59,694 bases of DNA from an uncultured euryarchaeote (lineage in GTDB: Archaea; Thermoplasmatota; Poseidoniia; Poseidoniales; Poseidoniaceae). Below are positions 1-35,379 of this stretch, piece by piece. Under the pieces are notes generated by a model, which saw nothing but the letters and a program-made list of their open reading frames with translations, had not been told where the DNA came from and did not search any database. The stretch covers positions 1 through 59,694 of the forward strand of contig CAXGZM010000001.1 in the NCBI GenBank assembly GCA_964014165.1. The letters run 5' to 3'. How positions within the stretch are numbered: position 1 is the stretch's first letter; the number at the start of each line of letters is the position of its first letter. Both the position numbers and the translations under genes were made by a program.

Positions 1-5
1 CGTTC

Positions 6-3706: not shown

Positions 3707-4227
3707 GTTCGTATTGGATGCTTCCTCGCATCGCCTTTGATTGGATTGAAAGCACCATACCAAAAGGCGCCGTCGTGCTTGAATTTGGGAGCGGTGAAGG
3801 AAGCATCAGCCTCGCTCAGGACTACGACTTAATCTCGGTTGAGCACGACGAGGGTTGGGTCGGCCATGCAAAAAATTCCACGTATCACTTTGCCCCCATC
3901 GCTCACAACAGTGTTTCAGAGCAGCACGGCGACGTTGGTTGGTATGAACCGGCATTTTTTGATGCCCTCCCTTCGTTTGTGTCCCTCATTCTCATCGATG
4001 GGCCGCCGGGGAGAATTGGCCGAGCAGGAATGTTGGCACATCTCGAACGCCTTCCCGAGTGGCGGTACATGCTTGTTGATGACACAGATCGAAAAGCAGA
4101 GGCCAATCTCTCAAGAAAACTCCAAGATTACTTTGATTGTGAACGCCAACGTGTTGAAACCTCGGAAAAGAAATTTGACGGGTCAATACGAATGTTTGAT
4201 GTGCTCAGCAGGAGGATGGTACCATGA
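3697..4227 (+). CDS. small SAM-dependent methyltransferase-like protein (DUF579 / polysaccharide methyltransferase-like motif order)
   Basis: The ATG lies inside the last 10 nt of the upstream gene. Motifs VVLEFGSGEGS (G-loop), LILIDGPPGRIGRAG and MLVDDTDRKAE occur in the same order as I remember for the DUF579 family. Assignment is from motif memory only. Confidence 0.4.
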   Translation: MALSSYWMLPRIAFDWIESTIPKGAVVLEFGSGEGSISLAQDYDLISVEHDEGWVGHAKNSTYHFAPIAHNSVSEQHGDVGWYEPAFFDALPSFVSLILIDGPPGRIGRAGMLAHLERLPEWRYMLVDDTDRKAEANLSRKLQDYFDCERQRVETSEKKFDGSIRMFDVLSRRMVP

Positions 4228-6538: not shown

Positions 6539-7263
6539 TTTGATGCCTCCTTCAGGGCGTAATAGGCCTTGATGGCGTCTTGAGGTTCGCCATCGTGGAC
6601 TACTTTTCCGTGATCGAGAAGAACGACCCGATCGCAAATATCTCTCATCAATCCGAAACTGTGAGAGACAATGACAACCGTGCTTGCGCCTTTGACCATG
6701 TCGAGAATTCTTTTCTTTGATTTTTCTCGAAAATTCGGGTCTCCAACACCCAGCACCTCATCGATCAACAGGATGTTTGGTTTAATCGCTGAAGCAACCG
6801 CCAATCCAAGACGTGCTTTCATGCCTGCAGAGTACGTTCGCAGTGGCTCATCAATGAAGGAGCCGAGCTCACTGAACTCAATGATTTCATCCAGTTTCCC
6901 CCTCATTTCGGCTTCATCGTGGCCGAGAATTGAGCCATAGAGCAGTGCGTTCTCTCGTCCTGTTTGATGCGCGGAGAATCCAGTTCCAAGTCCAGCAAGC
7001 AGCGAAATATCCCCGGCTGCGTGCACCGTACCTTCGTCGGGAGGGTAAATTCCTGAAATGACGCGAAGCAAGGTGGATTTCCCTGATCCGTTTGTGCCGA
7101 TGATACCGACCACGTCACCCTGGTTGATTTCCAAGTTGATGTCCGACAGAGCAGTGAACCGGCGCACTTTCTTCTTGAAGAAATCAGCAAGGATTCCAAA
7201 CATGTTCCGCTGCTTGGGAAAGTGCAACGTGATGCCTTCAAGGCGGATTGACGGTTCTGTCAT
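6535..7263 (-). CDS. polysaccharide/teichoic-acid-type ABC exporter ATP-binding protein (TagH/KpsT/Wzt-like, no C-terminal glycan-binding domain)
   Basis: Walker A GTNGSGKST, signature YSAGMKARL, Walker B ILLIDEV, H-loop VSHS. ATG 7263 overlaps the permease stop (ATGA). The longer track ORF (to 7431) adds only an Arg/Pro/Gly-rich overlap. Confidence 0.85.
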   Translation of the reverse strand: MTEPSIRLEGITLHFPKQRNMFGILADFFKKKVRRFTALSDINLEINQGDVVGIIGTNGSGKSTLLRVISGIYPPDEGTVHAAGDISLLAGLGTGFSAHQTGRENALLYGSILGHDEAEMRGKLDEIIEFSELGSFIDEPLRTYSAGMKARLGLAVASAIKPNILLIDEVLGVGDPNFREKSKKRILDMVKGASTVVIVSHSFGLMRDICDRVVLLDHGKVVHDGEPQDAIKAYYALKEASN

Positions 7264-8117
7264 AGGTACTTCACCGCCCCTCGCTCGTATTTTGAAAACA
7301 CCATTGTCCCAACCAAATAAACGAGAAGGGTGGCAACGACGCTCGAGAGGATGACTTCGGGCGGGAGGTCCACGGATTTGCCCTCCAGTCCGTGGCGCAC
7401 CATGGTGATGGGGAGCACCATCGGGTTCCACAACGCAGCCTCACCCCAAGCCCCTCGCTCAAGAGCCATCTCAGCAGTCCACATGACCGGCGAGAGAAAG
7501 AATCCCGCTCGGGTGATAAACCGAACGAGATGCTGGACGTCACGTTGTACGCAGTTCAGAGGGGCCATCAACATGCCAAAACCTAGGGCCATGAAGCCAG
7601 CCAACAAAATACCGACTGGAACCCAAAGAAGGTGAACGCTCAACGGTAGATCGTAAATGAAAAGGAGAGGAAAAACGATGAGACAACTCATCAACGTGAC
7701 CACAACATTCGCACCCACGCCCGATACAGGAAAAATTGAGCGAGGGAAATACACCAAATGCATGGTGCGGACGTTCCCCGTGAGGGAATTTGTCGCAGCG
7801 TTCAATGATTTTGAAAATGACCCCCAGACGATGACGCCCATCAACACCCACACGGCGTACATCTTGTCGGGATTTCCACTCAACATGATGAATAAAAACC
7901 AGTAAACAGAGGCCAGCAGTGCAGGTTCAATCACCGTCCAAGCATAACCAAGCGCAGCGTTCCTGTATCGGCCGCGAACTTCTCGCCGAATCAGGTTCCG
8001 TAGCAAAAAGCGATTTGTTCGAATTTCCGTTAAGGTATGGATGGGTGCGAAGAGCGGATTTGATTTCACTCCGATTTGGCGGAGAACAGGCGCGGCCGAA
8101 GCGTTCTCCTCCATCAT
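7260..8117 (-). CDS. ABC-2 type polysaccharide export permease (Wzm/TagG/KpsM-like)
   Basis: About 6 TM segments. The N-terminal RNLIRREVRGRYRNAALGYAWTVIEP signature is typical of ABC-2 glycan exporters. Translationally coupled to the ATPase. Confidence 0.8.
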   Translation of the reverse strand: MMEENASAAPVLRQIGVKSNPLFAPIHTLTEIRTNRFLLRNLIRREVRGRYRNAALGYAWTVIEPALLASVYWFLFIMLSGNPDKMYAVWVLMGVIVWGSFSKSLNAATNSLTGNVRTMHLVYFPRSIFPVSGVGANVVVTLMSCLIVFPLLFIYDLPLSVHLLWVPVGILLAGFMALGFGMLMAPLNCVQRDVQHLVRFITRAGFFLSPVMWTAEMALERGAWGEAALWNPMVLPITMVRHGLEGKSVDLPPEVILSSVVATLLVYLVGTMVFSKYERGAVKYL

Positions 8118-8135
8118 CGGCGCCTTGATTCATCC

Positions 8136-8143
8136 CTATATGA
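8136..8143 (-). promoter_or_regulatory. TATA-like element upstream of the ABC exporter operon
   Basis: CTATATGA on the plus strand, ~22 nt upstream of ATG 8117, in the 177-bp divergent region. Confidence 0.3.
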
Positions 8144-8294
8144 TTGAAGCGGACCAATCGTTCAATGATGCAGCATTCAGCGGGTGTTCGAATCAATGCA
8201 CCTGGAATTTATGGGTTGGGTTGAAGAGAAGAACGGATTTGGAAAGGCCATGGGATGGCATCAGCGCTTCGCCTCGCTGGCGTCAAATGCCGAC

Positions 8295-9605
8295 ATGACC
8301 GTCGGTATCATCGGCTTGGGCTACGTCGGCCTCCCGACTGCCATCGGTTTCCACGATGCTGGGTTTACGGTGTGGGGCGTGGACGTGTCTCAGCGCACCG
8401 TGGATGCGGTGAAAGCCGGGAAAAACCCAACAGGTGATCCGGACGTGGATGACATTGTCCCCCAACCGGGCACCGACCGCTGGCACATCACGACCTCAAC
8501 GGCCGAGGCGGTTCCAAATTGTGACATCGTCCTCGTCACGGTTCCGACGCCGGTCACGCACGACCTCAAGCCCGATCTTTCCTACGTTGAGGCAGCCGGA
8601 AGAGCGGTCTTCGAAGCGATTCCAAAAGGTTCCAACACCATCGTGGTGCTGGAGTCCACGGTGTATCCCGGGGTGACGGCTCATACGTGGTTGCCGCTGA
8701 TTGAAGGCTTGGGCATGACCATCGGCGTGGACGTTGAAATTGCTTATTGCCCGGAGCGCTTCAACCCCGGCGATGCTGCCCACGGCGTTCGTTCCGTGGC
8801 GCGAGTTATCGGTTGTTCCAATCCCGAGGTGGGTGAAGCGCTGGTCCAACTCTACAGTCAACTCACGAGCGAAGACGTCCGCTATGTGGGTAAGCTTGAG
8901 GTCGCTGAGGCGGCCAAGGTCATTGAGAACGTTCAGCGCGACATCAACATCGCCCTGGTCAACGAACTCGCTCGGATTTTCCCGGCCATGGACGTGGATG
9001 TTGAAGACGTGCTGTCGGCCGCAGCGACGAAGTGGAACTTCCATCGCTACACCCCTGGCGTCGGCGTGGGCGGCCATTGTATTCCCGTTGACCCGTATTA
9101 CATGATTCAGCGAGCAGCCGATGTCGGCGTGCCTGCCGGGCTCATTGCCGCCGCTCGTGCCGTGAACCGGTCCATGCCCAACCACGTGGCTCAAGTGCTC
9201 GTTGACATTCTGTGGAAGGCTGGTCTTTCGGCTGAATCCACCAAGGTGCTGTTCCTTGGTTGGTCCTACAAGGCCGAGGTCGGCGACCCTCGTGAAACGC
9301 CAGCAGAACCGCTGGCGGAGGCACTCCAGCAACGCGGCATCCACGTCAGTGTCTACGATCCGCACATCGATCCCGAGACCTTCCCTGATTCGGTGGACGT
9401 GATTCAAGACCTCTCTCTGGCCGAAGGCCATGACCTCGCCGTGTTGGTGACAGCCCACACGGCGTGTGTTGACCTTGACTGGTCGACCCTCGCCCGGCAA
9501 ATGGAGACACCACGCATTTACGACGGTCGCCGTGTGCTCGATTTGGAATCGCTGAAGGAAGCTGGCTGGCAGTGCTATGCCGTCGGACGCCCAATCCCTT
9601 CGTGA
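8295..9605 (+). CDS. nucleotide-sugar 6-dehydrogenase (WecC/WbpA/Cap5O-like UDP-N-acetylhexosamine dehydrogenase clade)
   Basis: Rossmann N-terminus MTVGIIGLGYVGLP, catalytic GGHCIPVDPYY, and a C-terminal UDP-binding domain. The track ORF starts at 8184. ATG 8295 gives the canonical N-terminus; 8250 is an alternative. Confidence 0.85.
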   Translation: MTVGIIGLGYVGLPTAIGFHDAGFTVWGVDVSQRTVDAVKAGKNPTGDPDVDDIVPQPGTDRWHITTSTAEAVPNCDIVLVTVPTPVTHDLKPDLSYVEAAGRAVFEAIPKGSNTIVVLESTVYPGVTAHTWLPLIEGLGMTIGVDVEIAYCPERFNPGDAAHGVRSVARVIGCSNPEVGEALVQLYSQLTSEDVRYVGKLEVAEAAKVIENVQRDINIALVNELARIFPAMDVDVEDVLSAAATKWNFHRYTPGVGVGGHCIPVDPYYMIQRAADVGVPAGLIAAARAVNRSMPNHVAQVLVDILWKAGLSAESTKVLFLGWSYKAEVGDPRETPAEPLAEALQQRGIHVSVYDPHIDPETFPDSVDVIQDLSLAEGHDLAVLVTAHTACVDLDWSTLARQMETPRIYDGRRVLDLESLKEAGWQCYAVGRPIPS

Positions 9606-9626
9606 ACCGGTTCACACGCTGTTTTT
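9602..9626 (+). terminator. perfect 14-nt palindrome overlapping the stop codon, followed by T5
   Basis: GTGAACCGGTTCAC at 9602-9615, then TTTTT at 9622-9626, just after the dehydrogenase gene. Confidence 0.3.
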
Positions 9627-9690
9627 CCGATGTTGTCGGTGATGCGCTGAGGAACGTTAAACTGCAACGGGCTCTCATTGCCATTGGTAG

Positions 9691-10806
9691 ATGGAACAAA
9701 AGGAGCCGGCCGCGCTGTCCATCGGGCAGTTTGCATTGAGCATGGGCGTTTTCCTCGTCGTGTTTTTGTTTCTTTCCGGTTCGGTTGTTCCGACCGTGGT
9801 GAACGACGGCCTGATTGAAGGGAACTTCATCCGAAGCGGCCGTTATGCTGTCACGCACCCAGCCATGGAATCCATCGCAGCCGAGGAAGGCGAGGCTGTT
9901 GTTGTGATCGGCTCCTCCATTCTTCAATATGCTACGGACGGCCTGTGCATCGGTCAACACTTGGATGATGACAACACCAAGGTCTACAATCTGGCCATAG
10001 GAGGTGCGAACCCCTACACGGAAATGATTCAGATTCCATCGTTAATCGACACGAAACCAAAAGCCGTCATCGTTGACCTTGGCCCGAATTCGTTGTGGAA
10101 TTTTTACGAATCCGACAGCCTTGATGAATACATTCAGTTTCGATTTACCATTCTAAGCCTGACGCTTGATTTGGGGAGAGAACCGGCTTGGAGCGACTTG
10201 ATTCGTGAACGGGACCAATCCTTCATTGCATCCAGTTTGGAAGAGCGAATTCACCTAACAGCATCGTACTCTCAGGTTGCTCTTGATAACGCGCTGGCAG
10301 CCGAATTTCATGATGAATTGGGCGTAGCATACATCGATCGGAACATGCCAGGCGTTGACGATGAAGGTTGGCTGGACTATCTGCAAAACCCCGGGTTTTT
10401 ACCTCCCTTGTTTGAGTTGAAAAATCAAACAGAAGTGGACGCATGGTTTGAGGAAAACATGCCGAAACGCGCGAAGTATGGCGTCTACAACCCGTTGCCC
10501 AACGGGACGCTCAATCATGCAGCGCTGGACTACACCGTTCGCTCCTTGACCGAAGCAGGTATCGAGGTGTTCATGCTCGCCATTCCACACCATCCACAGG
10601 TGTATGACTACCTTCAACCCAGCCAGATTGACGGGCATAACGTCACGCTGAACCGGTTTGAGCAGGAATACGGGGCCGTCCCTGTGAATTGGTTTTGGGA
10701 ATCATGGGACCAGGGGATGTTTCGAGACCGTAACCACCTAGGCGATCAAGGTCGAATCCATGCATGTGAGCGAATCGCTGACATGTTGAACGAACAATTG
10801 GGGTGA
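9691..10806 (+). CDS. membrane-anchored SGNH/DltD/AlgJ-like protein (probable partner of the MBOAT)
   Basis: N-terminal TM anchor, then VVVIGSSILQY (nucleophile-like Ser), NLAIGGANPY, and a C-terminal FRDRNHLGDQG (DxxH). Lies immediately upstream of the MBOAT gene. Confidence 0.45.
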   Translation: MEQKEPAALSIGQFALSMGVFLVVFLFLSGSVVPTVVNDGLIEGNFIRSGRYAVTHPAMESIAAEEGEAVVVIGSSILQYATDGLCIGQHLDDDNTKVYNLAIGGANPYTEMIQIPSLIDTKPKAVIVDLGPNSLWNFYESDSLDEYIQFRFTILSLTLDLGREPAWSDLIRERDQSFIASSLEERIHLTASYSQVALDNALAAEFHDELGVAYIDRNMPGVDDEGWLDYLQNPGFLPPLFELKNQTEVDAWFEENMPKRAKYGVYNPLPNGTLNHAALDYTVRSLTEAGIEVFMLAIPHHPQVYDYLQPSQIDGHNVTLNRFEQEYGAVPVNWFWESWDQGMFRDRNHLGDQGRIHACERIADMLNEQLG

Positions 10807-10810
10807 GCAC

Positions 10811-12265
10811 TTGGATTTCGTCACCCCTTCGTACTACCTCTATTTTCTCCCGCTGGTGGTTGTTCTCACGTTTGGCCTCGCCTCAAGGCAACGTCGCCGC
10901 CAAATTCTGATCCTTCTCGTGATGAGTTATGTGTTCTTCTGGCTCGCCTCGGGATGGCACCTCATTCTTCTCCTCGTGTCGACATGCATCGATTGGACCG
11001 CAGGGCGAAAAATGCACGAAACGGACGATACAAGCAGGCGAAAGCGATGGCTTCGAATCAGTTTAGTCACCAACCTTTCCCTGCTTGGCGTGTTCAAGTA
11101 CCTTGATTTCATCATCGAAAGTTGGAACCTTGTTTCCCTTCGCCTCACCGATGGTCTTGAGGTTGGTGCGTTGGGATTGGCCTTGCCGGTGGGGATCTCC
11201 TTCTACACCTTCCAGACCATGTCCTACACCATTGACGTTTATCGTCAGAAACAGAAGCCGTACGATTCATTCCTCGACTTTGCCTGCTACGCTGCGTTTT
11301 TCCCGCAACTTGTAGCCGGCCCCATCGTCCGAGCGGATCATTTCCGGGAGCAAATCAAGGAACCGTTGGCCCCGTCTGCATACCGATTTCGTCTTGGATT
11401 GACGCTCATCATTTACGGGATAAGCAAAAAACTCGTCATCGCCGATAACGTCGCCGTCCATGCCAACGAGGTTTTCGTTGAAGGCGAACATTTGGCCAAC
11501 ATCGGGTTGGTGTGGTGGGCCACCTTGTGTTTTGGTATCCAAATTTACTGTGATTTTTCCGCCTACACGGACATCGCCATCGGGTCTGCACATCTGATTG
11601 GCGTTGAATTACCAGAGAATTTCAAAACGCCCTACGCTGCCACTTCCCCCCAAGACTTCTGGCGCCGGTGGCACATTTCACTCTCGACGTGGTTGCGAGA
11701 TTACCTCTACATCCCGCTCGGCGGGTCGCGAAACGGTCGAAACCGCATGTTGTTTGCGTTGATGATGACGATGCTTCTTGGCGGCCTTTGGCACGGAGCT
11801 TCGTGGAACTTTGTGCTGTGGGGTTTTGTCCACGGCCTGCTGCTCATCGTCCATCGCTTTGGGAAAGAAATTGGTCCCGTCAAGCAATTTTTCACAGCTT
11901 CCGGCCGGGGGGGCGTCGTTCTCTCGTGGCTGATCACTCAATTTTTCGTGTTCTTTACTTGGCTGATTTTCCGAGTGGAAGACACGGCCGTCCTCGTCCC
12001 ATCGATGAAGACCTTCCTCGGTTGGGGTGGCCACTTTGACTGGATGGAGATGTACGAGTTTCTGCCCGACATCAAATTCCTCACGTTCGCCTTGGCAGGA
12101 TGTTTCATCCTTCTTCACGGTGTGAGTGGCTGGATGGGGGGAGGAAAAGCGTGGTTGGCCCGTCAACATTCGGTTGTTTGGGGTTCAGTTTGTGGATTCA
12201 TGCTGTGTTTGGCCTTTTACCTTCGTCCGGCGGAAACGATTGACTTCATTTATTTCCGATTCTGA
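10811..12265 (+). CDS. MBOAT family O-acyltransferase (AlgI/DltB/PatA-like)
   Basis: Polytopic membrane protein. The hallmark FWRRWHISLSTWLRDYLYIPLGGSR contains the catalytic His. TTG start lies 5 nt after the upstream stop. Confidence 0.85.
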   Translation: MDFVTPSYYLYFLPLVVVLTFGLASRQRRRQILILLVMSYVFFWLASGWHLILLLVSTCIDWTAGRKMHETDDTSRRKRWLRISLVTNLSLLGVFKYLDFIIESWNLVSLRLTDGLEVGALGLALPVGISFYTFQTMSYTIDVYRQKQKPYDSFLDFACYAAFFPQLVAGPIVRADHFREQIKEPLAPSAYRFRLGLTLIIYGISKKLVIADNVAVHANEVFVEGEHLANIGLVWWATLCFGIQIYCDFSAYTDIAIGSAHLIGVELPENFKTPYAATSPQDFWRRWHISLSTWLRDYLYIPLGGSRNGRNRMLFALMMTMLLGGLWHGASWNFVLWGFVHGLLLIVHRFGKEIGPVKQFFTASGRGGVVLSWLITQFFVFFTWLIFRVEDTAVLVPSMKTFLGWGGHFDWMEMYEFLPDIKFLTFALAGCFILLHGVSGWMGGGKAWLARQHSVVWGSVCGFMLCLAFYLRPAETIDFIYFRF

Positions 12266-24109: not shown

Positions 24110-26662
24110 ATGGGCGAGAAGCCGGCAGGCCGATTGTTGATGTTAGCGGGGTTGCTGTTGACCTCGTTGTTCATCGGCATGGTCTCGGCCGATGAGGGCG
24201 ACGTGGTCCTTGCAGCGAGCGTGGTGAACCCGCCCGACCATCCATGGTACGACCCCGCCCATCCGCTCATTCTTGAGCCCCGCTTGACCAACAATGGCCC
24301 CGACGTGTCCCTCTTGATGAATCCGGCGTGCCCCGTGGTCCTGAACGTCTACAACGCGAGTGATGTAATGGTGGTTGACGGCTCATCCGAATGTCCTCAA
24401 CGCGAACAGGGCCTCGATCTTTTTGCGGGTGAGCAGATCGCCCTTGAAGCCGTCTCATGGTCGATGAAAGACAACGCGGGTGGCTGGCTTGAGAGCGGAA
24501 CCTACACCGTTGAACTTCTCCATTCCGTCGGGGCATCGTTCGCCACGGAGGTGACGATCCAGACACCGTTTTCCCTTCCGCAGGAATTGACGTACGCCGT
24601 ACAGACCGCTCAGCGAGGCGATGACGGCCAACTTGTCCACCTCGTGAGTTTGTACAACCCCACGGCAGAAAGCGTCTCGCTTGCAGACATGACGGCATGC
24701 TGGCTCGAGATTTCGGTCAACGATGCTCACCGCCTGGGAGCACCCTGCACCGGTGGCGTGAGCAACTTGATGCCCGGCGAAGTCATGCTGGTGGACCAAG
24801 TCTCGGCTGCTTTGACATCCAAGGTCTCGATTTCAACGCCCGGTGATTCGTTTGTGTTCAACAGCGCCGAAGCGTCGGCGACCACCACGGCCTCGCCCAC
24901 GCTCGAGATGGAACTCGCACTCAGCGGCAACGAACTGCCCGCGTACAGCCCGAGCGAAGTGCTGGTCAGCGAAGTGCTGTTGCGCTCATCCTCTTCCGAA
25001 GCCGTCCAGGTGGAATTCACCGATTCGTGCAAGGCCGAACTTTGGGTGGTGGACGACCTTGGCCATGTGGTTTATGACAGCCGCTCGGGCAAAGTCTGCA
25101 CACCGATCGATCTCGAAGTCGTGGTTGAATCAGATGCCCCGGAACAACTCACGTTGCCACAATGGAATTTCTACGACAGCGAGGGGTGCATGGTTCAACC
25201 AGGGACCTACACCGTGGTTGCTGAAGTACCTGAACACGACCTGATCACCAGCAAGACCGTTGAATTCCTCTCGGTGGAAGCCAACCCGTGCACTTCGCCG
25301 GACGCCGCATCACTCACCGCATCGCTGACGTGGCAGGACGACCGCACCGTTCGCCTCAACGCCGAGGCCTTCACCAACCAAGCCGACCATCTTCGAATGG
25401 CCCAACCGTGCACCTTTGAAGTCGCTTTCCTCGACGAGGAAGACAACACCGTCCACCTCTTCCAAACCCTGTGCGATGCCTACGACGGCCGCAAAATCCT
25501 CCTGCCGGACGCATCCCAATCCCTCAAATTCGATGCGGTCGACATCAGCATGGTTCAGGACGGCTCACCGCTCCTCCCGGATGGCTTCTACACCCTCAGC
25601 CTCACGATGTTGTCAACCTCTTCCTCCACGACCACCCTCCCGTTGGCGTGGCCGGCTGATTTTGGCGAACAGGAAACGGATGAGGCGGTGGCAGAACCAC
25701 CCGAGACGTTCGAACTAACGGGCAGTTGGACCGGGTTGCTCACGGACGAGGGGACGTGTTACGTCATGGACTCGGACGGCGAGACTTACCTGTTGTCCAA
25801 CGCTCGTACGCTTCCATCGTGGCAACCGAGCGCCTTGAACCAAGGCGTCTACGTCGTTGTCGAAACCGTGCCTTCTCCCGCTTGCAGCGACTATCTGGCG
25901 CCATCGGTTGAAGTGGTCGAGGTCCGCATGGAACAACCCCTCGTCAGCGAAGAAACCGCAAGCGTTGAAGTCAACGAGGAGCCAACCACTGCTGTTGCTG
26001 AATCCAACACCGTCGTCACGGCCGTGAGCGTGGTCGTGACCGCCTCCGTCCTCTCGATGTTTGTCGTGGTCGCCGCCACCAACGAAGGATTGCGATTGCC
26101 GGCCACTGCTGCCGGCTTGTGGTTCCTCGGCCTCGTCGGCAAAACCCATGAAACCACGGACGGACGATACCAGCGCGGTCGACTGATGGGCTACCTCACG
26201 GCCAATCCGGGATGCCACTTCAGGGCCCTCATGAGCGCCCTTGACATGAGCAACGGGCAGATCACGCATCACCTTCGTATTCTTGAGGCTGAAGAACACG
26301 TCTGGCGAAAGGGCGACGGCCGCCTGGTCCGATTTTATCCACTCACCAACAAACTCAATCCCAACACCAGCGAAGAAGATCTTCCCGTTCCACCGCTTTC
26401 TCCTGACCCGAACAGCCTGCAAGGAAAGATCCTGAACTTGCTGGACCAAGGCGGGGATTTGGGGCAATTCCCTACGCAGGCCGAACTCGCAAAGCGCCTT
26501 GAAAAAAGTCAACAGTTGATCTCTCATCACCTGCGGACCTTGCAAAAATACGGGTTGGTCGAGCGTCGGAAGATGGGAGTCAAGAACCGCTACAAACTCA
26601 CTCGGGAAGCGGTCTTCCTGTTGGAGACGAGTGACGACTTTGCCCACGACGACCTCCTCTGA
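24110..26662 (+). CDS. membrane-tethered protein: signal/TM, four Cys-pair Ig-like (BsuPI-like) ectodomain repeats, 2 TM segments, two C-terminal ArsR-type wHTH domains
   Basis: N-terminal LLMLAGLLLTSLFIGMVSA. Repeated C-x(15-22)-C ... (S/P/D)G(T/F)YT(V/L) modules. TM VVTAVSVVVTASVLSMFVVVAAT. wHTH 1 is CHFRALMSALDMSNGQITHHLRILEAEEHVWRK. wHTH 2 is QAELAKRLEKSQQLISHHLRTLQKYGLVERR. Confidence 0.55.
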   Translation: MGEKPAGRLLMLAGLLLTSLFIGMVSADEGDVVLAASVVNPPDHPWYDPAHPLILEPRLTNNGPDVSLLMNPACPVVLNVYNASDVMVVDGSSECPQREQGLDLFAGEQIALEAVSWSMKDNAGGWLESGTYTVELLHSVGASFATEVTIQTPFSLPQELTYAVQTAQRGDDGQLVHLVSLYNPTAESVSLADMTACWLEISVNDAHRLGAPCTGGVSNLMPGEVMLVDQVSAALTSKVSISTPGDSFVFNSAEASATTTASPTLEMELALSGNELPAYSPSEVLVSEVLLRSSSSEAVQVEFTDSCKAELWVVDDLGHVVYDSRSGKVCTPIDLEVVVESDAPEQLTLPQWNFYDSEGCMVQPGTYTVVAEVPEHDLITSKTVEFLSVEANPCTSPDAASLTASLTWQDDRTVRLNAEAFTNQADHLRMAQPCTFEVAFLDEEDNTVHLFQTLCDAYDGRKILLPDASQSLKFDAVDISMVQDGSPLLPDGFYTLSLTMLSTSSSTTTLPLAWPADFGEQETDEAVAEPPETFELTGSWTGLLTDEGTCYVMDSDGETYLLSNARTLPSWQPSALNQGVYVVVETVPSPACSDYLAPSVEVVEVRMEQPLVSEETASVEVNEEPTTAVAESNTVVTAVSVVVTASVLSMFVVVAATNEGLRLPATAAGLWFLGLVGKTHETTDGRYQRGRLMGYLTANPGCHFRALMSALDMSNGQITHHLRILEAEEHVWRKGDGRLVRFYPLTNKLNPNTSEEDLPVPPLSPDPNSLQGKILNLLDQGGDLGQFPTQAELAKRLEKSQQLISHHLRTLQKYGLVERRKMGVKNRYKLTREAVFLLETSDDFAHDDLL
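24272..25624 (+). repeat. four divergent ~75-100-aa Ig-like modules (protein-level repeat)
   Basis: Each module has a Cys pair: C74/C95, C197/C213, C307/C330, C434/C455. Modules 1, 3 and 4 end in a G(T/F)YT(V/L) strand. Confidence 0.45.
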
Positions 26663-29575: not shown

Positions 29576-32275
29576 TCACGCCTCTTCGTCCATGGATGGA
29601 CGTGGAGGTGGCATGTCGTTCATCATCGGGACCTTCGGCAGCGGAGGACCGGGCCGTTTCGCGTTGGTGTACACGGCGTAAACGATGACGGCGCCTGCAA
29701 GGAGGAAGATGACCGTCGAGGCGCTCAAGCCGTCATCGTCGGTTTCACCTGCGGGGTCGAGAACAGTCGCTTCGCAGCCTCGCTCGTCAACCACCGCATT
29801 CACCGGTGAGTTTCCACAGAAATCGTAAGCGTTCACGACGCCGTCGCTGTCATCGTCGAGCTGGTACTGACTGCAACCGTTGGAGGAAACGGTTTCCTCG
29901 CTGTTGGTGTTCGGGCAGCGGTCCAGTGGATCGAGCACACCGTCCTGATCGTCATCGTCGTCTTCAACGGCGTCAATGCAGCCGTCCCCGTCGTTGTCTT
30001 GTCCGGGTTGAGCGGGGCCGATCAAGCCTCGTGGGCAGCGGTCCATCGGGTCTTTGATACCGTCCTGATCGTCGTCGGCGTCTTCGAGGTCGTCATGGCA
30101 TCCATCGCCGTCGTTGTCCAACATGGAGGCGTTATCGCCCCAGTTTTTCTCTCCCATGGGGCAGGCATCGTTGATGTCCAACACCGAATCGTCGTCGTCG
30201 TCCTCATCCGTTGTTTCGTCGAGGCAACCGTCCCCGTCGTAATCGTTCCACGTGAAGGAGATCCACGATTGAATGTCGTTGGGACAATTGTCGTCGGGGA
30301 CAGCGATACCGTCGCCGTCTTTGTCAGCGTCGCAGGCATCCCCAATACCGTCGTTGTCAAGGTCGGCTTGAGTTGGGTTGGCCGCAGCGGGGCAATTGTC
30401 CGCCTGGTCAACGAAGCCGTCGTCGTCGTTGTCCTCATCGGAGCAACCGTCGGATTCGATGTCGTTCTCATCGGTTGAAACCCACCCAACGGGTCCCTTT
30501 GGACACACATCATATTCGTCAAAAATGCCGTCTTCGTCGTCGTCCAAGTCCTCGGTAATGTCTCGGCAACCGTCGCTGTCGTGGTCGGACAGCGCGTTGG
30601 CCGCCCAACCGACGTCACCCGTGGGGCAATCATCGTTCACGTCCAGCACCCCATCACCGTCCACGTCCTCGTCGCATGCATCGCCGTAGGCATCACCGTC
30701 GAGGTTGGCTTGGTCGTTGTTGGCGACACCGGGGCAGTTGTCGAGTCCGTCCAGCACTCCGTCGAGGTCAAGATCGGTTTCGTACAGCCACACGCCCATG
30801 TCGTACTGGTCTCGCTGGTCGAACGGATGGGCCCCGTAGGCTCCGTTCCCGTTGGAGATGAACGAAATGACAGGCGAGCCGGTAGCACTCATGCTGAGCG
30901 TGTCCGGGAGGTCATCACCTTGCCCGCCGGCAGCGATGGCCCAGTCCCACGTGCTGTTCGCTTGGCGTCGGCCGAGGAAGATGTCGTGATGGTTGCCATC
31001 GTTCAGTCCGTCGATGTCCGTGAGGGTGTAATCACCCAGCACCAACGTCCCCGTTGTTTTTCCAAGGATGAGCGAATCGCCCTGTTCGGTGAGGTGGATG
31101 GCAACGGCATGGTCGGCAGCCCCACCGCCAAAACCGGTGGCGTGCAACCATTCACCCTGCGACGAGACGTGGGCTTCGTAGAAATCAACCCAGACCGACG
31201 GAGCGAGTTCAATCTCCCCAAAGGTCATGTTTTGCAGGTAATCGCCCACGACGGCCACACCACCGTCGTAGCGACCGTCGCAATCGGCTGCCGTTGAGTC
31301 CCCTGTGCCGCCCGCACCGGTGGCCCATAACCAACCGCCCGAGTTGTATTTGGCGACCGCCACGTGTGCGGACCCTTCGCTGGTGAGCTCGTTTTCACCA
31401 AAACTTACGAGTTCAAGGAACGAGGTCGTGAAGTAGGTCTCTCCGTTGTAATCAGCGCACAGAGCGCCGTTGTTCTCGAGGTTCTGGCTGGAAAAAACCG
31501 TGTGCATGTGGCGGTGATTGCCCGTGCTGTCCATCACCAGAATCGCGATGGAGTCTTCGGAAAGGCTGCCGGGAGCGAGGTCGTCGCCGGCCGTCAAGGA
31601 GTCCCGATGGAGCAGCGCCAGGTGAACTTCATCGTTCGGGCCGACCATCATATCGATCACGGAAAGTTGGTACGGGTTGGAGAAACTTGTTGCCCACATC
31701 CACTCGCCCATCGATGTCATGCCTGCGACAAACACGGCGTTTTCGTGTTCATCAGCGGATTTGTTGATCGGTTCAAGTTCTCCAAGGGTCATGTTGCATG
31801 CATCGCCTTTCGTCATGTCGCAGTATGTTCCGGCGATGATGATGGTTCCGTCACTTAAGCGGTCCATGGCATTGATACCGTCGAGTCCGCTGCTGGTGCC
31901 CGCAACGGTTTCGGTCCACGTGCCGTTTTCATCGATCCAGGCGAGGAAAAAATCAATTCCAAAATTCGAATCTTCACTGGAAAAGCCGATGACGTCACCG
32001 TGGAATTCAACGGTCTGTTCAAACATTCCACCCACGAGCATGCTGCCGTTGGGTAACGGAACCATGCCGCGCACCCGCTCATAATTTGCACCTCCAGCAC
32101 TGGCCAACCAGCCGCTGGTGTTGTCGGCTGAGGAAAGACTGGGACTTGGGACGTTCAACAAGGGCTCGTCCACCTCCGTGCCGGTCAACGAGAGGGGTGC
32201 GAGCAGCATCATGCTCACGACCAAGAGAGGAAGGAGGGCGTTGAATCTCACACAACTTCCAGCCTGCCTTTGCAT
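29576..32275 (-). CDS. giant surface protein: signal peptide, beta-rich (propeller-like) domain, canonical TSP3 repeat array, C-terminal TM anchor and Pro-rich tail
   Basis: ATG 32275 gives the signal peptide MQRQAGSCVRFNALLPLLVVSMMLLAPLSLTG. Repeats of the type DNCPGVANNDQANLDGDAYGDACDEDVDGDGVLD. TM VIFLLAGAVIVYAVYT. Tail KRPGPPLPKVPMMNDMPPPRP. Confidence 0.65.
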   Translation of the reverse strand: MQRQAGSCVRFNALLPLLVVSMMLLAPLSLTGTEVDEPLLNVPSPSLSSADNTSGWLASAGGANYERVRGMVPLPNGSMLVGGMFEQTVEFHGDVIGFSSEDSNFGIDFFLAWIDENGTWTETVAGTSSGLDGINAMDRLSDGTIIIAGTYCDMTKGDACNMTLGELEPINKSADEHENAVFVAGMTSMGEWMWATSFSNPYQLSVIDMMVGPNDEVHLALLHRDSLTAGDDLAPGSLSEDSIAILVMDSTGNHRHMHTVFSSQNLENNGALCADYNGETYFTTSFLELVSFGENELTSEGSAHVAVAKYNSGGWLWATGAGGTGDSTAADCDGRYDGGVAVVGDYLQNMTFGEIELAPSVWVDFYEAHVSSQGEWLHATGFGGGAADHAVAIHLTEQGDSLILGKTTGTLVLGDYTLTDIDGLNDGNHHDIFLGRRQANSTWDWAIAAGGQGDDLPDTLSMSATGSPVISFISNGNGAYGAHPFDQRDQYDMGVWLYETDLDLDGVLDGLDNCPGVANNDQANLDGDAYGDACDEDVDGDGVLDVNDDCPTGDVGWAANALSDHDSDGCRDITEDLDDDEDGIFDEYDVCPKGPVGWVSTDENDIESDGCSDEDNDDDGFVDQADNCPAAANPTQADLDNDGIGDACDADKDGDGIAVPDDNCPNDIQSWISFTWNDYDGDGCLDETTDEDDDDDSVLDINDACPMGEKNWGDNASMLDNDGDGCHDDLEDADDDQDGIKDPMDRCPRGLIGPAQPGQDNDGDGCIDAVEDDDDDQDGVLDPLDRCPNTNSEETVSSNGCSQYQLDDDSDGVVNAYDFCGNSPVNAVVDERGCEATVLDPAGETDDDGLSASTVIFLLAGAVIVYAVYTNAKRPGPPLPKVPMMNDMPPPRPSMDEEA
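29773..30748 (-). repeat. canonical TSP3 repeat array (coding)
   Basis: Repeated D.D.DG..D..D.CP units, for example DSDGCRDITEDLDDDEDGIFDEYDVCP. Confidence 0.7.
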
Positions 32276-32347
32276 AAGAACCCCTCGTGCTGAGGACCGC
32301 TCGGGTAGGGGGGAGCCTTCATTGAGTGTCGCCGGAGAGGGGCGACC

Positions 32348-33391
32348 ATGAGTGATGGTTCCCGACCGCGCCGGCGACAGCAACAGCGGCGGAACTCATC
32401 CTCAAAGCGTCGCTACGGCGGGCCCAAGCGCTCGCAGCAATTGGAGCGGTTTGCGGCCGATGTTGCTTCGATGAACGCCGAGGCAGAGGCCCGCTTTGAC
32501 CGGACACCTGCACCCATGGCCTTCCCAGAGGACATGGAACCTCCTCGCACCTTTCGTCTCTCGTGGACGCCTGAACCCGTCCCGCTGAAAGCTGAAGAGC
32601 GCGTGGCCAGCATGGTGGTCAAGCGGGGCGATTTCGGGTGGCTCACCGATGAGCGCGTTGACGCCATTGCTTCTCAAGTCGCATCGGAAAACATGACGTT
32701 GGAGCAAGCGCTTTCGCTTCGATCGGCCCTGCTCCAGCAAAAAACGGTGTATTCCCATCATCGCTTGAAGTCAAAAGCCCGTGAACTTGCACGCCTGTAT
32801 CGGGAGGGAACGTCCGTCGTTGAGCTCTCCAAAAAGTACGATTTCCCCCCGGTGAACATCTTTCGCGTTGTACTTGAAGCGATGGGATGGTCGAAGAAAC
32901 GCATCAAGGAAAGCCTGCGCAATCCTTCCTCCATGAAACAACGGGAACGGGATGAATTCGAAGCGGCGGAAGCCGTGGATCGCGTCTCCAGCGTGGACCA
33001 GTCCGAGACCCAGGTCAAAGCCGATCTCTTTGAGGACATCCTCGCCGACTGGTTTGAAGAACAGGGCATTCGTTTGCGTCGACAACCGGAGATGGTCAAA
33101 GAGCAGTCTGAACGATTGGGTCGGCCCGTGCGGACCCCTGACCTGCTGTTTTTGGATCACGTTTACATCAACGACCAACCCGTCGCTTGGATTGATGCGA
33201 AGCACTTCTACGGTGCTGACGTTGAGTTCCAGCGCAAGAAGATGAAGAAGCAGATGAACCGGTACATCGAGGAGTGGGGCAGCGGAGCGATCATGTTCCG
33301 TCACGGGTTTTCAGAAAACCTGTTTCTGCCCGGTGTGTTGATGCTTGACGCCAGCCCAATCGACCTCTCACGCCTCAATCCTGATGATTGA
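32348..33391 (+). CDS. CDIN1/C15orf41-like (TPD-motif) PD-(D/E)xK nuclease-fold protein with basic N-terminal tail and HTH-like middle region
   Basis: The C-terminus RTPDLLFLDHVYINDQPVAWIDAKHFYG...QMNRYIEEWGSGAIMFRHGF matches the TPD ... WIESKA.FG ... fGpG.v.yw.GF pattern I recall for the eukaryotic TPD family. Arg-rich N-terminus. Confidence 0.5.
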   Translation: MSDGSRPRRRQQQRRNSSSKRRYGGPKRSQQLERFAADVASMNAEAEARFDRTPAPMAFPEDMEPPRTFRLSWTPEPVPLKAEERVASMVVKRGDFGWLTDERVDAIASQVASENMTLEQALSLRSALLQQKTVYSHHRLKSKARELARLYREGTSVVELSKKYDFPPVNIFRVVLEAMGWSKKRIKESLRNPSSMKQRERDEFEAAEAVDRVSSVDQSETQVKADLFEDILADWFEEQGIRLRRQPEMVKEQSERLGRPVRTPDLLFLDHVYINDQPVAWIDAKHFYGADVEFQRKKMKKQMNRYIEEWGSGAIMFRHGFSENLFLPGVLMLDASPIDLSRLNPDD

Positions 33392-34403
33392 CCGGTGAAA
33401 TGCTGGTGATGAGGCATTGAAAGCCTCGTTGACGTACGTGTTCACTCAGCGTTTCCAGCGACTCTGTTTCCAGTCCACCGTCCAGCGAGCGAGGAAGAAC
33501 CGCCACCGAACTGCCCAGCATGCAAAGACGAACCGCCATGGTCGACTGCCATCCACCGTCTTGTACGGCCTCGAGGACATGGCGATGAATGCGGGCGCGC
33601 TCCGCTTCATCCAGCATACCCGATGCAGTTGCGAAGGTTCTTGACGCCAACAGGAGGTCAGGCCAACGCCTGACAGACCACGGTTCGGCAGCAAGGGACG
33701 AAACGCCGGCTTCCCCGGCGACGGTAATGGATCGCTGCCATTCCGGGTCATCGATGTACGTCGATGTGTGCCGTTCTTCGAGAGGGTCCCACGCCAGCAG
33801 CACCGGTACGTCGGCCTCGAAGGAGGCGGCTTGACCGGGCCATCCCGGTGCGCCCGGTGCCAACCTCAATTCAACGCCTCCCACCGAAGCTCCAAGCACG
33901 TCCCCGAGTCCCGCTCCGTGAGCACGCTCGATGCGATGCGCGATTTTCAGGTACTGGGTCAACCGCCCGCGCCCCGTTAGTGCGTGAACCAGTCGCCCCG
34001 CAGCGATAAGGCCGGCTGCCGACATCCCAAACCCTTGGCTGGTTGGGCATTCAAGGATGACGTTCATTTCGACCCGCTCGTCTTCGCGCAAGAGCGTCGC
34101 ATCATAGCAAGCCTCAATGAAATCAAGGTAGAGATCGATATGTTCCACGTGTTCGCCGTGCATGTTAGCGACCGAAACGACGGGTGGTTCCGGTGCTTGT
34201 TTTTCGACTCGCTGATCAGGGGTAATGCCCGCATTGTAAACGCCGGCGGAATCGGTCCGATGGAGGGTTCCAGAAATTTCGACACCATGGTGGATGGAGA
34301 ATCCGGCGCCTTTGCTGCCTTGGCTACGCATCAACGCCGTGGATTTGTCGACGGTGAACAGAAGCGTGATGTGGCCACCGCATCGTTGGGTTGTGGTGGT
34401 CAT
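33375..34403 (-). CDS. GHMP-kinase family protein, archaeal pantoate-kinase-like
   Basis: GGHITLLFTV near the N-terminus, GSKGAGFSI, and the GHMP motif TSQGFGMSAAGLIAAG. ATG 34403 avoids overlap with the rpoD stop. Confidence 0.45.
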   Translation of the reverse strand: MTTTTQRCGGHITLLFTVDKSTALMRSQGSKGAGFSIHHGVEISGTLHRTDSAGVYNAGITPDQRVEKQAPEPPVVSVANMHGEHVEHIDLYLDFIEACYDATLLREDERVEMNVILECPTSQGFGMSAAGLIAAGRLVHALTGRGRLTQYLKIAHRIERAHGAGLGDVLGASVGGVELRLAPGAPGWPGQAASFEADVPVLLAWDPLEERHTSTYIDDPEWQRSITVAGEAGVSSLAAEPWSVRRWPDLLLASRTFATASGMLDEAERARIHRHVLEAVQDGGWQSTMAVRLCMLGSSVAVLPRSLDGGLETESLETLSEHVRQRGFQCLITSISPVNHQD

Positions 34404-34446
34404 CCCTTCGTGCGAAGGGGTGCTGGCTGATGAATGCCGCGATGGT

Positions 34447-35379
34447 TCAAGCAAGAGCGGACGCCAGCTCTTCGCTCAGGTTGTTGAAGCGATGCTTGAG
34501 TTCCTCAAGAGCAGCGTTGAACGCAACCTTGGGATCGAGGCTGCCGTCGGTCTCGTAGGAAAACACGTAGGAACCTTCGACGGGTTCGAGGGTGATGGCA
34601 TCGTCAAACGCCGCTTCACGACCGGTTCCCTCGCCCACTTGGTGGAGGGCCTTCTCGAGGTCCATCACGTGGTTGACATCGGTCAATTTCTTGTCTTTTC
34701 CGAAGAGCTTGGCGTTGATGGCCGTGCCGTCGGTGGTGGTCAATCCGAGGTCGAAGAGAACACTGGCCTTCTTTGGCTTGTTGAGAACGGCAATGCGGTG
34801 CGGGCGGAAGCCCACTGCAGCCACAGGCGACCACTTGGCGTGGTCTCGTCCTCGACCGACCACTGCGAAGGCGTAGAATTCGAGGAATTGACCCTTTGCA
34901 AGAACGGTGAGTGGAATCGACTTGTGTTCGTCGCGAATGTCGTAGAAGGGGTCGGAGATGGTCGTAATATCGCCGGCGTAAACGGTCTTGTACTCCTCTT
35001 CAGAGTCAGCCGAGGGGCCTCGGGCAGAGAGGGTGTAGAGCACTTGGCACATCGGGCAACCCCTGTCTCGCTCAACGACATCCTTGCAGTTCGGGCACTG
35101 GTCGGGTGCATACAGCGGCTCCTCGAGGTTGGTGGGAATGGGAATCATGGCCAAACGGTGAGCCAGCACTTCGTCGGGAAGGACGTTCACCGATTCAACG
35201 ACTTCGCCCTTGTTGTCCTGAGTGACGCCTTGGGAGAAGTCCACGCGAGTGATGGCGAGTTTGGGGACGTCGGCGATCAGGGCTCGGCGGATGGCGTTGA
35301 CCTGGGAGGCGTTGGTCTCGCTGATCAGGATTCGAATTTCGTGACCCTGTGGCCAACCTTCAACAATCTCGGTCTTCAT
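34447..35379 (-). CDS. rpoD: DNA-directed RNA polymerase subunit D (Rpo3)
   Basis: NASQVNAIRRALIADVPKLAITRVDF, EVLAHRLAMIPIP, and a Cys cluster CPNCKDV...GCPMCQ. Position after S13-S4-S11 is as in archaeal operons. Confidence 0.85.
   Translation of the reverse strand: MKTEIVEGWPQGHEIRILISETNASQVNAIRRALIADVPKLAITRVDFSQGVTQDNKGEVVESVNVLPDEVLAHRLAMIPIPTNLEEPLYAPDQCPNCKDVVERDRGCPMCQVLYTLSARGPSADSEEEYKTVYAGDITTISDPFYDIRDEHKSIPLTVLAKGQFLEFYAFAVVGRGRDHAKWSPVAAVGFRPHRIAVLNKPKKASVLFDLGLTTTDGTAINAKLFGKDKKLTDVNHVMDLEKALHQVGEGTGREAAFDDAITLEPVEGSYVFSYETDGSLDPKVAFNAALEELKHRFNNLSEELASALA

What the first reader, a model, noticed from the sequence alone, without database searches (positions are those of the whole stretch)
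32348..33391. Archaeal homolog of the eukaryotic CDIN1 (C15orf41) TPD-motif PD-(D/E)xK nuclease
The C-terminus reads RTPDLLFLDHVYINDQPVAWIDAKHFYGADVEF…QMNRYIEEWGSGAIMFRHGFSENL. As far as I recall, the eukaryotic TPD family containing human CDIN1 has TPD…, then WIESKA.FG, then …fGpG.viyW.GF. The D…(D/E).K arrangement fits a restriction-endonuclease-like fold. The middle region (LARLYREGTSVVELSKKYDFPPVNIFRVVLEAMGW) looks like the HTH part of CDIN1. An Arg-rich N-terminal tail (SRPRRRQQQRRNSSSKRRYGGPKR) is added. CDIN1 is mutated in congenital dyserythropoietic anaemia type I and its biochemical role is unclear. A prokaryotic ortholog would be a useful model and bears on the origin of the family.
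Basis: partly seen in the sequence, partly recalled or inferred. Interest (0 to 1): 0.6.

Follow-up and report, generated by a model that had tools for sequence, protein, structure and literature searches.

The report
Marine archaeal CDIN1-family nuclease, already annotated
This gene of a marine Group II archaeon (Poseidoniales) encodes a full-length relative of human CDIN1, the nuclease mutated in a hereditary anaemia, but archaeal members are already published and annotated, and this copy lies on a divergent branch shared with marine protists and giant viruses.

Summary
The ORF at 32348-33391 (+, 347 aa) is real and reads as quoted. It matches Pfam PF14811 (TPD, the CDIN1/C15orf41 family) at E 2.5e-19, 69.9 bits against a cut-off of 27. 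It aligns over residues 66-341 with eukaryotic proteins named CDAN1-interacting nuclease 1. Its AlphaFold2 model (pLDDT 89.7) matches giant-virus TPD/CDIN1 models (TM 0.75/0.86).

It is not new. Swickley 2020 and Roy & Babbs 2019 report archaeal orthologues, NCBI names an 88%-identical protein 'TPD domain-containing protein [Candidatus Poseidonia sp.]', and this scan reached the same verdict on other genomes.

What I add:
- The family splits in two. The human-like type (WIESKASFGD) occurs in Methanomassiliicoccales, Marine Group III and Methanosarcina, and scores E 3e-34 against human CDIN1.
- The Poseidoniales type (WIDAKHFYG) scores only E 2e-07 against human. It is 40% identical to a diatom nuclear gene and clusters with oomycete and giant-virus copies.
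- It is a single-copy core gene at a fixed locus beside the S13-S4-S11-RpoD operon.

The most likely function, by analogy with the 2026 human result, is a Mg-dependent RNA nuclease. Interest is low to moderate.

The parts
32348..33391 (+). Complete ORF, 347 aa plus stop: TPD/CDIN1-family PD-(D/E)xK nuclease
   Evidence: ORF list and translation. Pfam PF14811 E 2.5e-19. Homologues in 57/58 and 36/36 genomes sampled from the two Poseidoniales families.
32276..32347 (.). 72-bp divergent intergenic region between the TSP3-repeat gene (start codon read at 32275-32273 on the minus strand) and the TPD gene. A GGAGAGG lies 9-15 nt upstream of the ATG.
   Evidence: Read directly from the sequence. No promoter was tested.
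32348..32440 (+). Residues 1-31: polybasic, predicted disordered tail (11 R/K, 1 acidic) containing the RRYGGPKR motif
   Evidence: pLDDT 53-61. The RRYGGP+R motif is conserved among Poseidoniaceae homologues. tblastn alignments start at residues 4-11 in two Thalassarchaeaceae genomes. Composition.
32429..32497 (+). Residues 28-50: lineage-specific N-terminal helix ahead of the conserved core
   Evidence: DSSP on the AF2 model, pLDDT about 80. It lies outside the region aligned to non-Poseidoniales homologues, which start at about residues 60-70.
32543..32932 (+). Residues 66-195: mainly helical N-domain, the counterpart of the CDIN1 N-domain
   Evidence: AF2 model, pLDDT above 95. It aligns with full-length homologues.
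32777..32881 (+). Residues 144-178: helix-turn-helix-like three-helix unit (H144-152, H157-164, H168-178)
   Evidence: DSSP. It aligns to human residues 71-107. Only sub-threshold hits to HTH families were found: DUF742 E 0.0048, RcsB E 0.23, sigma70-ECF E 2.3.
32945..33367 (+). Residues 200-340: C-terminal alpha/beta PD-(D/E)xK nuclease domain (Pfam TPD hit covers 200-328)
   Evidence: The domain-only AF2 model has pLDDT 94.2. The best, non-significant, PDB neighbours are PD-(D/E)xK nuclease domains: DdmD, NucS, BbvCI, BamHI.
33032..33034 (+). E229, the first-helix glutamate (human E166)
   Evidence: Invariant in 50 diverse and 20 close homologues. Human numbering from PMC13463051.
33134..33142 (+). 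T263-P264-D265, the TPD motif (human T194-P195-D196)
   Evidence: P264 and D265 are invariant and T263 is at least 90% conserved.
33194..33202 (+). D283-A284-K285, the (D/E)xK motif (human E214-A215-K216)
   Evidence: K285 is invariant. D283 is invariant in the Poseidoniales set and is D or E across the family.
33251..33265 (+). Q302...Y306 on the helix after the catalytic strand (human Q232 and Y236, modelled RNA contacts)
   Evidence: Both are invariant. The human contacts come from AF3/MD modelling in PMC13463051.

Best explanation
The ORF encodes the Poseidoniales (Marine Group II archaea) member of the TPD/CDIN1 family. It has two domains: a helical N-domain with an HTH-like unit, and a C-terminal PD-(D/E)xK nuclease domain with an intact metal-binding site (E229, D265, D283, K285). 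It is a single-copy, vertically inherited housekeeping gene at a fixed chromosomal position, not a defence or mobile gene. By analogy with human CDIN1, it most likely acts as a Mg2+-dependent nuclease on RNA, trimming 3' ends of double-stranded RNA or of the RNA strand of RNA:DNA hybrids. [quoted passage not shown] No Codanin-1 was found in the genome. The lineage-specific N-terminal helix and polybasic disordered tail may supply in cis the positively charged substrate-holding surface that Codanin-1 supplies in trans in humans.

Shown: family membership, intact active site, architecture, core-gene status and synteny.
Inferred: metal-dependent catalysis, preference for RNA, and the role of the tail.
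For: Family and architecture:
- Pfam PF14811 at 69.9 bits against a cut-off of 27.
- Full-length homology to eukaryotic CDIN1-named proteins.
- AF2 model with pLDDT 89.7 and pTM 0.85, showing a helical N-domain and an alpha-beta-beta-beta-alpha-beta C-domain.
- BFVD matches to giant-virus TPD/CDIN1 models: E 1.4e-25 with TM 0.75/0.86, then E 9.5e-13 and 2.8e-09.

Active site:
- E229, D265, K285, Q302 and Y306 are invariant and D283 is D or E.
- Residue spacing matches human E166/D196/E214/K216/Q232/Y236 except for a 7-residue insert and one extra residue.

Core-gene status:
- One copy in the window's own genome.
- Present in 57/58 and 36/36 genomes sampled from the two Poseidoniales families.
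- The order LeuRS-(TSP3)-TPD, convergent with pantoate kinase-RpoD-S11-S4-S13, holds in 8 genomes of both families.
- No significant PADLOC hit.

[quoted passage not shown] The D196A/E214A mutant is inactive, and Codanin-1's basic coiled coil feeds the substrate (PMC13463051).

Partner and tail: no Codanin-1_C match in the genome. The tail motif RRYGGPKR is conserved.
Against: - No biochemical data exist for any archaeal member.
- This protein is only 21% identical to human CDIN1 (E 2e-07) and lies on the far branch of the family, so substrate preference may differ.
- Human activity without Codanin-1 was weak, needing more than 250 nM enzyme for a single cut, and earlier studies found no activity at all (PMC7261414).
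- The proposed role of the tail is conjecture. Part of the Thalassarchaeaceae lack an alignable tail: tblastn starts at residue 46 in L108 and L111.
- The Codanin-1 search had no positive control, and the genome is 80% complete.
Confidence: 0.6

Rival explanations
1. It is a structure-specific DNA nuclease, such as a Holliday-junction, flap or mismatch endonuclease, as first proposed for C15orf41 from its similarity to Hjc-type resolvases.
For: The PD-(D/E)xK fold is used mostly by DNA nucleases. The best, though non-significant, structural neighbours are DNA enzymes: the DdmD nuclease domain (E 0.03), Pyrococcus NucS (E 0.11), BbvCI, BamHI and BsaWI. The weak profile hit to T7 endonuclease I aligns the E and TPD motifs (E 0.092). 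Human CDIN1 binds DNA.
Against: Human CDIN1 did not cut any DNA substrate, including Holliday junctions and flaps (PMC7261414; PMC13463051). No Hjc family hit appeared at E up to 10, and no Hjc structure is among the 50 PDB matches listed.
Confidence: 0.2
2. It is mainly a nucleic-acid-binding or regulatory protein (an HTH transcription factor or RNA-binding scaffold) whose nuclease site is not used catalytically.
For: It has an HTH-like unit and weak hits to HTH families. It has a polybasic tail. Several laboratories failed for years to detect activity in human CDIN1.
Against: All four catalytic positions, plus Q302 and Y306, are invariant or conservatively D/E across more than 50 diverse homologues. 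That pattern is expected for an active enzyme. Human activity has now been shown and is lost in D196A/E214A.
Confidence: 0.08
3. It is an anti-virus defence nuclease or part of a mobile element acquired recently.
For: Homologues are common in giant viruses, and the branch is shared across domains of life.
Against: It is single-copy and occurs at the same locus in both Poseidoniales families, beside ribosomal-protein and RNA-polymerase genes. GC content matches its surroundings at about 0.59. There is no PADLOC hit below E 0.01. No integrase or repeats were seen, and it has no partner gene in an operon.
Confidence: 0.03

Closest known systems
[quoted passage not shown]
   Same: Same Pfam family. 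Same two-domain layout, with a helical HTH-containing N-domain and a PD-(D/E)xK C-domain. The same catalytic E / TPD / (D/E)xK set and the following Q...Y.
   Different: Only 21% identity, E 2e-07. The motifs are WIDAKHFYG and AIMFRHGF instead of WIESKASFGD and VIYWYGF. There is a 7-residue insert between the E and TPD motifs. An extra 65 N-terminal residues include a polybasic tail. No Codanin-1 partner was found. It matched 21 residue positions given in two papers but is 5 residues short of the published 281.
Human-like ('type A') archaeal TPD proteins of Methanomassiliicoccales, Methanomethylophilaceae, Marine Group III, Methanofastidiosia, Altiarchaeales and Methanosarcina acetivorans
   Same: Same family and architecture, and also archaeal. 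These are the orthologues reported by Swickley 2020. My comparison gave E 3e-34 against human, reproducing their value.
   Different: They are about 250-270 aa without a tail and carry WIESKASFGD / VVYWFG. They are only 27-28% identical to this protein. They sit at a different chromosomal locus. In the tree they are separated from this protein by a branch with 100/100 support and group with human.
Protist and giant-virus TPD proteins ('type B'): Chaetoceros neogracilis, an MMETSP transcript, Saprolegnia 'CDAN1-interacting nuclease 1', Mimivirus and Powai lake megavirus proteins, and GVMAG contigs
   Same: These are the closest non-Poseidoniales relatives: 40% identity and E 3e-73 to the diatom gene, 45% to the MMETSP transcript, and E 2.3e-51 to Saprolegnia. 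They share the WID.K.[FY]YG motif, the 7-residue insert and the extra N-terminal strand-helix. BFVD structural matches support this, and the same motifs occur in GVMAG contigs.
   Different: The eukaryotic copies carry long Cys-rich or zinc-finger N-terminal extensions in place of the short Arg-rich tail. The diatom gene lies among typical eukaryotic genes. According to Swickley 2020, diatoms and oomycetes have Codanin-1.
NucS/EndoMS, the DdmD nuclease domain and type II restriction endonucleases (generic PD-(D/E)xK fold)
   Same: Same core fold class and catalytic logic.
   Different: The resemblance is at fold level only: Foldseek E 0.03-1 and TM 0.3-0.42. There is no significant sequence similarity.

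Membership tests
TPD / CDIN1 family (Pfam PF14811) | Score above the curated Pfam gathering threshold | tested here: met
   69.9 bits against a cut-off of 27, E 2.5e-19, residues 200-328 on profile positions 5-127 of 138. Six-frame search of the genome gave 72.2 bits.
TPD / CDIN1 family (Pfam PF14811) | Catalytic set E ... (T)PD ... (D/E)xK | tested here: met
   E229, T263-P264-D265 and D283-x-K285 are present. E229, P264, D265 and K285 are invariant in 50 diverse homologues. D283 is invariant in the close set. Human equivalents are E166, D196, E214 and K216.
TPD / CDIN1 family (Pfam PF14811) | Conserved Q...Y on the helix after the catalytic strand (human Q232, Y236) | tested here: met
   Q302 and Y306 are invariant, with the same 4-residue spacing as in human.
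TPD / CDIN1 family (Pfam PF14811) | Two-domain architecture: helical N-domain with HTH-like unit plus alpha/beta/alpha nuclease C-domain | tested here: met
   AF2 model, pLDDT 89.7. Alignments to homologues cover residues 66-341. BFVD match over 292 columns with TM 0.75/0.86. No solved CDIN1 structure exists for comparison.
TPD / CDIN1 family (Pfam PF14811) | Orthology with vertebrate CDIN1 (closest archaeal relative of the human protein) | tested here: not met
   E 2e-07 and 21% identity to human, against E 3e-34 and 31% for a Methanomassiliicoccus copy. In the tree, human groups with the other archaeal type at 100/100 support. The protein is a family member but not the nearest archaeal counterpart. 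The human sequence was recalled from memory and checked at 21 positions.
TPD / CDIN1 family (Pfam PF14811) | Works with a Codanin-1 partner | tested here: inconclusive
   No PF15296 match in the 80%-complete genome, but the search matched no control genome either. Swickley 2020 found Codanin-1 only in eukaryotes.
TPD / CDIN1 family (Pfam PF14811) | Mg-dependent RNA nuclease activity | not testable with these tools
   Shown only for the human protein (PMC13463051).
Hjc-type archaeal Holliday junction resolvase | Profile or structural match to Hjc | tested here: not met
   No Hjc family among Pfam hits at E up to 10. No Hjc chain in the PDB sequence searches or among the 50 Foldseek matches listed for the nuclease domain.
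Anti-phage defence nucleases (PADLOC) | Match to a defence-system model, or location in a defence island | tested here: not met
   Only PDC-S02 at E 0.015. The neighbours are housekeeping genes.

The most novel reading that the evidence does not exclude
The Poseidoniales TPD nuclease is the archaeal end of an inter-domain gene exchange in the marine plankton. One possibility is that the Marine Group II ancestor replaced the human-like archaeal copy, still present in Marine Group III, with a version from a protist or giant virus. The other is that Marine Group II was the source of the version now found in diatoms, oomycetes and giant viruses. Animals carry the other, archaeal-like type. Together these suggest that CDIN1 crossed the archaea-eukaryote boundary more than once. 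A secondary idea is that the polybasic tail replaces Codanin-1's substrate-feeding surface in cis.
Probability: 0.45. Interest if true: 0.45.

Novelty: already known. Interest (0 to 1): 0.25.

Why it matters
CDIN1 is an essential human disease gene whose activity was demonstrated only in 2026, and it still has no experimental structure. A small, partner-free archaeal relative could help crystallography and mechanistic work. However, the Poseidoniales copy is uncultured, distant from the human protein, and already annotated. The human-like copies in Methanomassiliicoccales, or in the genetically tractable Methanosarcina acetivorans, are better models. The remaining point of interest is evolutionary. 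The family has two deep branches, each containing both archaea and eukaryotes, so the history of the gene is not a simple archaeal-to-eukaryotic inheritance.

Tried and rejected
- PDB sequence searches with the single protein and with a 50-sequence profile found no CDIN1 chain. The best hits were chance-level: eL19 at E 0.11 and T7 endonuclease I at E 0.092. The 2026 paper confirms that CDIN1 was not resolved in the cryo-EM maps.
- Foldseek against the PDB gave nothing at E <= 0.001, either with the whole model or with the nuclease domain alone. No solved structure could therefore serve as a yardstick.
- The search for related loci with the diverse alignment A1 failed because it had no conserved stretch. 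A narrower alignment, A3, worked but returned only the human-like archaeal type.
- A quick tree suggested that the diatom-type eukaryotic clade is nested inside Poseidoniales. This did not hold. The careful tree leaves those nodes unresolved. With the virus-like P0125 included, a single Poseidoniales clade fits better than the free tree (lnL +13, p-AU 0.72). The earlier rejection (p 0.0095) came from leaving out P0125, which nests in Thalassarchaeaceae. The direction of transfer is therefore not established.
- The lead from earlier scan notes that archaeal TPD genes pair with a membrane Cas4 nuclease did not apply here. The genome has no Cas4 family match, and the TPD gene has no operon partner.
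- PADLOC (E 0.015) and PHROGs (phrog_25288, E 5.6e-4, on the HTH region) gave nothing usable.
- The listing of cluster members gave no organism names for ten metagenomic representatives. I classed four of them as giant-virus-like from gene context instead.

Full report
**Observation.** The window holds an uninterrupted ORF at 32348..33391 on the + strand, 347 aa. The N-terminal 31 residues hold 11 Arg/Lys and one acidic residue. GC content (about 0.59) is the same as in the flanking 40 kb.

**Identity.**
- Pfam-A gives one significant hit: PF14811 'TPD', E 2.5e-19, 69.9 bits against a gathering cut-off of 27, over residues 200-328. NCBIfam has no model for it.
- The closest database proteins come from Candidatus Poseidoniales (Marine Group II archaea). 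NCBI already names one, 88% identical, 'TPD domain-containing protein [Candidatus Poseidonia sp.]'.
- An exhaustive phmmer search of 1.84 billion representatives found 1174 relatives. Alignments typically span residues 66-340, which is the whole length of the 260-300 aa relatives.
- One of these is the Saprolegnia protein that UniRef names 'CDAN1-interacting nuclease 1' (E 2.3e-51, residues 66-341).

**Structure.**
- An AlphaFold2 model built on 50 diverse homologues is confident (pLDDT 89.7, pTM 0.85). It shows a disordered tail (1-27), a lineage-specific helix (28-50), a helical N-domain with a three-helix HTH-like unit (144-178), and a C-terminal alpha/beta domain with PD-(D/E)xK topology.
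- Against predicted viral structures it matches an unnamed 303-aa protein (E 1.4e-25, TM 0.75/0.86), the Powai lake megavirus 'TPD domain-containing protein' (E 9.5e-13) and the Mimivirus 'CDAN1-interacting nuclease 1' (E 2.8e-09).
- Against the PDB nothing is significant, with the whole model or with the nuclease domain alone. The best neighbours are PD-(D/E)xK nucleases: BsaWI, DdmD, NucS, BbvCI and BamHI. No Hjc structure is among the listed matches.
- No CDIN1 chain is in the PDB by sequence. This agrees with the 2026 paper's statement that cryo-EM did not resolve CDIN1.

**Active site.** Across 50 diverse homologues E229, P264, D265, W281, K285, Q302, Y306, G311 and G313 are invariant. 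D283 is D or E. These correspond to human E166, D196, E214, K216, Q232 and Y236.

**What is already known.**
- Swickley et al. 2020 (PMC7092493) state that C15orf41 orthologues occur in Euryarchaeota, with BLAST E 1e-34 between the human and an archaeal protein, against 1e-12 for human against a choanoflagellate.
- Roy & Babbs 2019 (PMC6519365) mention archaea and viruses.
- Brolih et al. [quoted passage not shown] Codanin-1's basic coiled coil enhances this activity.
- This scan has reported the same gene in other Poseidoniales genomes with the same verdict.

**Distribution.**
- PF14811 is present in 226 of 401 genomes sampled from the phylum. That includes 57/58 and 36/36 genomes of the two Poseidoniales families, nearly always as one copy.
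- It is also present in Methanosarcina acetivorans among the control genomes.
- Named genomes carrying it include Methanomassiliicoccales, Methanomethylophilaceae, other Thermoplasmata, Methanofastidiosia and Altiarchaeales.

**Two subfamilies.**
- Non-Poseidoniales archaea, including the sister order in the same class (Marine Group III), score about 1e-40 against the Pfam model. They are about 250-270 aa and carry KTPDCLL...NWIESKASFGD...VVYWFG.
- Poseidoniales score about 1e-20. They are about 350 aa, carry TPDLLFLD...WIDAKHFYGA...AIMFRHGF, and have a 7-residue insert between the E and TPD motifs.
It matched all 21 residue positions cited in two papers but is 276 rather than 281 aa long. Treat the values that depend on it as approximate.
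- Pairwise comparisons:

| Comparison | Identity | E-value |
|---|---|---|
| Methanomassiliicoccus copy vs human | 31% | 3e-34 |
| This protein vs human | 21% | 2e-07 |
| This protein vs Methanomassiliicoccus copy | 28% | 7e-29 |
| This protein vs Marine Group III copy | 27% | 9e-28 |
| This protein vs Chaetoceros (diatom) protein | 40% | 3e-73 |

- The Methanomassiliicoccus-human value reproduces Swickley's number.
- The Chaetoceros gene lies among typical eukaryotic genes: WW, B9-C2, prefoldin and PI-PLC.
- Other near relatives lie on contigs with giant-virus gene content. These include RNA polymerase Rpb2 with an intein, a mitochondrial carrier, thymidine kinase, NAD-dependent ligase, XPG and photolyase. 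The Poseidoniales-type motifs also occur in GVMAG contigs of IMG/VR.

**Phylogeny.**
- A careful maximum-likelihood tree of 75 sequences puts human, Marine Group III and the other archaea on one side. Poseidoniales, protists and giant viruses are on the other side of a long branch with 100/100 support.
- A tree holding all archaea together is rejected (p-AU 4.5e-06).
- Poseidoniales form one clade once a virus-like sequence nested in Thalassarchaeaceae (P0125) is included. That constrained tree is 13 log-likelihood units better than the free tree (p-AU 0.72).
- Relations among the Poseidoniales, diatom-type, oomycete and viral clades are unresolved. An inter-domain transfer involving Poseidoniales is therefore likely, but its direction is open.

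**Genomic context.**
- The gene is monocistronic. A large secreted thrombospondin-type-3-repeat protein is transcribed divergently, 72 bp upstream.
- A pantoate-kinase-like gene converges on its 3' end with a 17-nt overlap. Behind that lie RpoD, S11, S4 and S13.
- The order LeuRS-(TSP3)-TPD, convergent with pantoate kinase-RpoD-S11-S4-S13, holds in eight genomes from both Poseidoniales families.
- None of these neighbours lies within 3 kb of the human-like TPD genes of other archaea. In Marine Group III the TPD gene is about 45 kb from RpoD.
- The genome has no Codanin-1_C match, though that search had no positive control. It has no Cas4 match and no defence-system match.

**Mechanism.**
- Established here: the protein is a core, single-copy, two-domain CDIN1-family protein with a complete metal-binding site.
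- Inferred from the human enzyme: it is a Mg-dependent nuclease acting on RNA 3' ends in duplex RNA or RNA:DNA hybrids, with the substrate in the inter-domain cleft.
- More speculative: the conserved polybasic tail and extra helix take over the substrate-holding role that Codanin-1 plays in trans. I put this at about 0.3.
- Rivals: a structure-specific DNA nuclease (0.2), a non-catalytic binder (0.08), and a defence or mobile nuclease (0.03).

**Verdict.** The finding is already on record in the literature, in NCBI annotation and in this scan. As a model for human CDIN1, this divergent, uncultured copy is inferior to the human-like archaeal copies. The two-branch structure of the family, with archaea and eukaryotes on both sides, is the only part that may be worth following up.

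Noticed in passing
window 1-12265: The first 12 kb has lower GC (0.51 against about 0.59). It encodes a surface-glycan cluster: a GT2 glycosyltransferase fused to a TupA-like ATP-grasp domain, DUF6395, an ABC-2 exporter pair, UDP-glucose dehydrogenase and MBOAT. It looks like a variable glycosylation island.
   Followed up: partly
window 29576-32275 (-): This gene encodes a secreted protein of about 900 aa with many thrombospondin type 3 repeats and a C-terminal membrane anchor. At this locus it is present in some Poseidoniales genomes (L104, L106, L107) and missing in others (L105, L108-L111). It appears to be a variable insert between LeuRS and the TPD gene.
   Followed up: partly
window 33375-34454 (-): A pantoate-kinase-like GHMP kinase. 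Its NCBIfam matches (E 4e-18 and 1e-15) fall well below the equivalog cut-offs, and it has no Pfam hit. Its stop end overlaps the TPD stop end by 17 nt in convergent orientation. This arrangement is conserved across the order.
   Followed up: partly
window 24110-26662 (+): An 850-aa protein that combines a BsuPI-like domain with two C-terminal winged-helix/HTH domains (HVO_0163-type and ArsR-type). It is conserved next to LeuRS in several Poseidoniales genomes.
   Followed up: no
L100 2140-3828: A 42-kb metagenomic contig made almost entirely of ORFans plus a RING-finger protein. It carries a Thalassarchaeaceae-type TPD gene fused to a 250-aa Cys-rich N-terminal region (P0125). In the tree it nests inside Marine Group IIb with 100/99 support. 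It may be a virus that captured the archaeal gene.
   Followed up: partly
L077, L079, L083: Human-gut bins labelled Acutalibacteraceae, Faecalibacterium and Eggerthellaceae carry human-like archaeal TPD genes. L077 groups with Methanomassiliicoccaceae/Methanomethylophilaceae sequences in the quick tree. These are probably archaeal contigs placed in the wrong bins rather than bacterial members of the family.
   Followed up: no
Family-wide (L014 vs human): Human CDIN1 groups with the Thermoplasmatota/methanogen type rather than with the protist type. This fits Swickley's remark that the human protein is closer to archaeal proteins (1e-34) than to the choanoflagellate one (1e-12). The animal gene may itself have an unusual origin.
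   Followed up: partly
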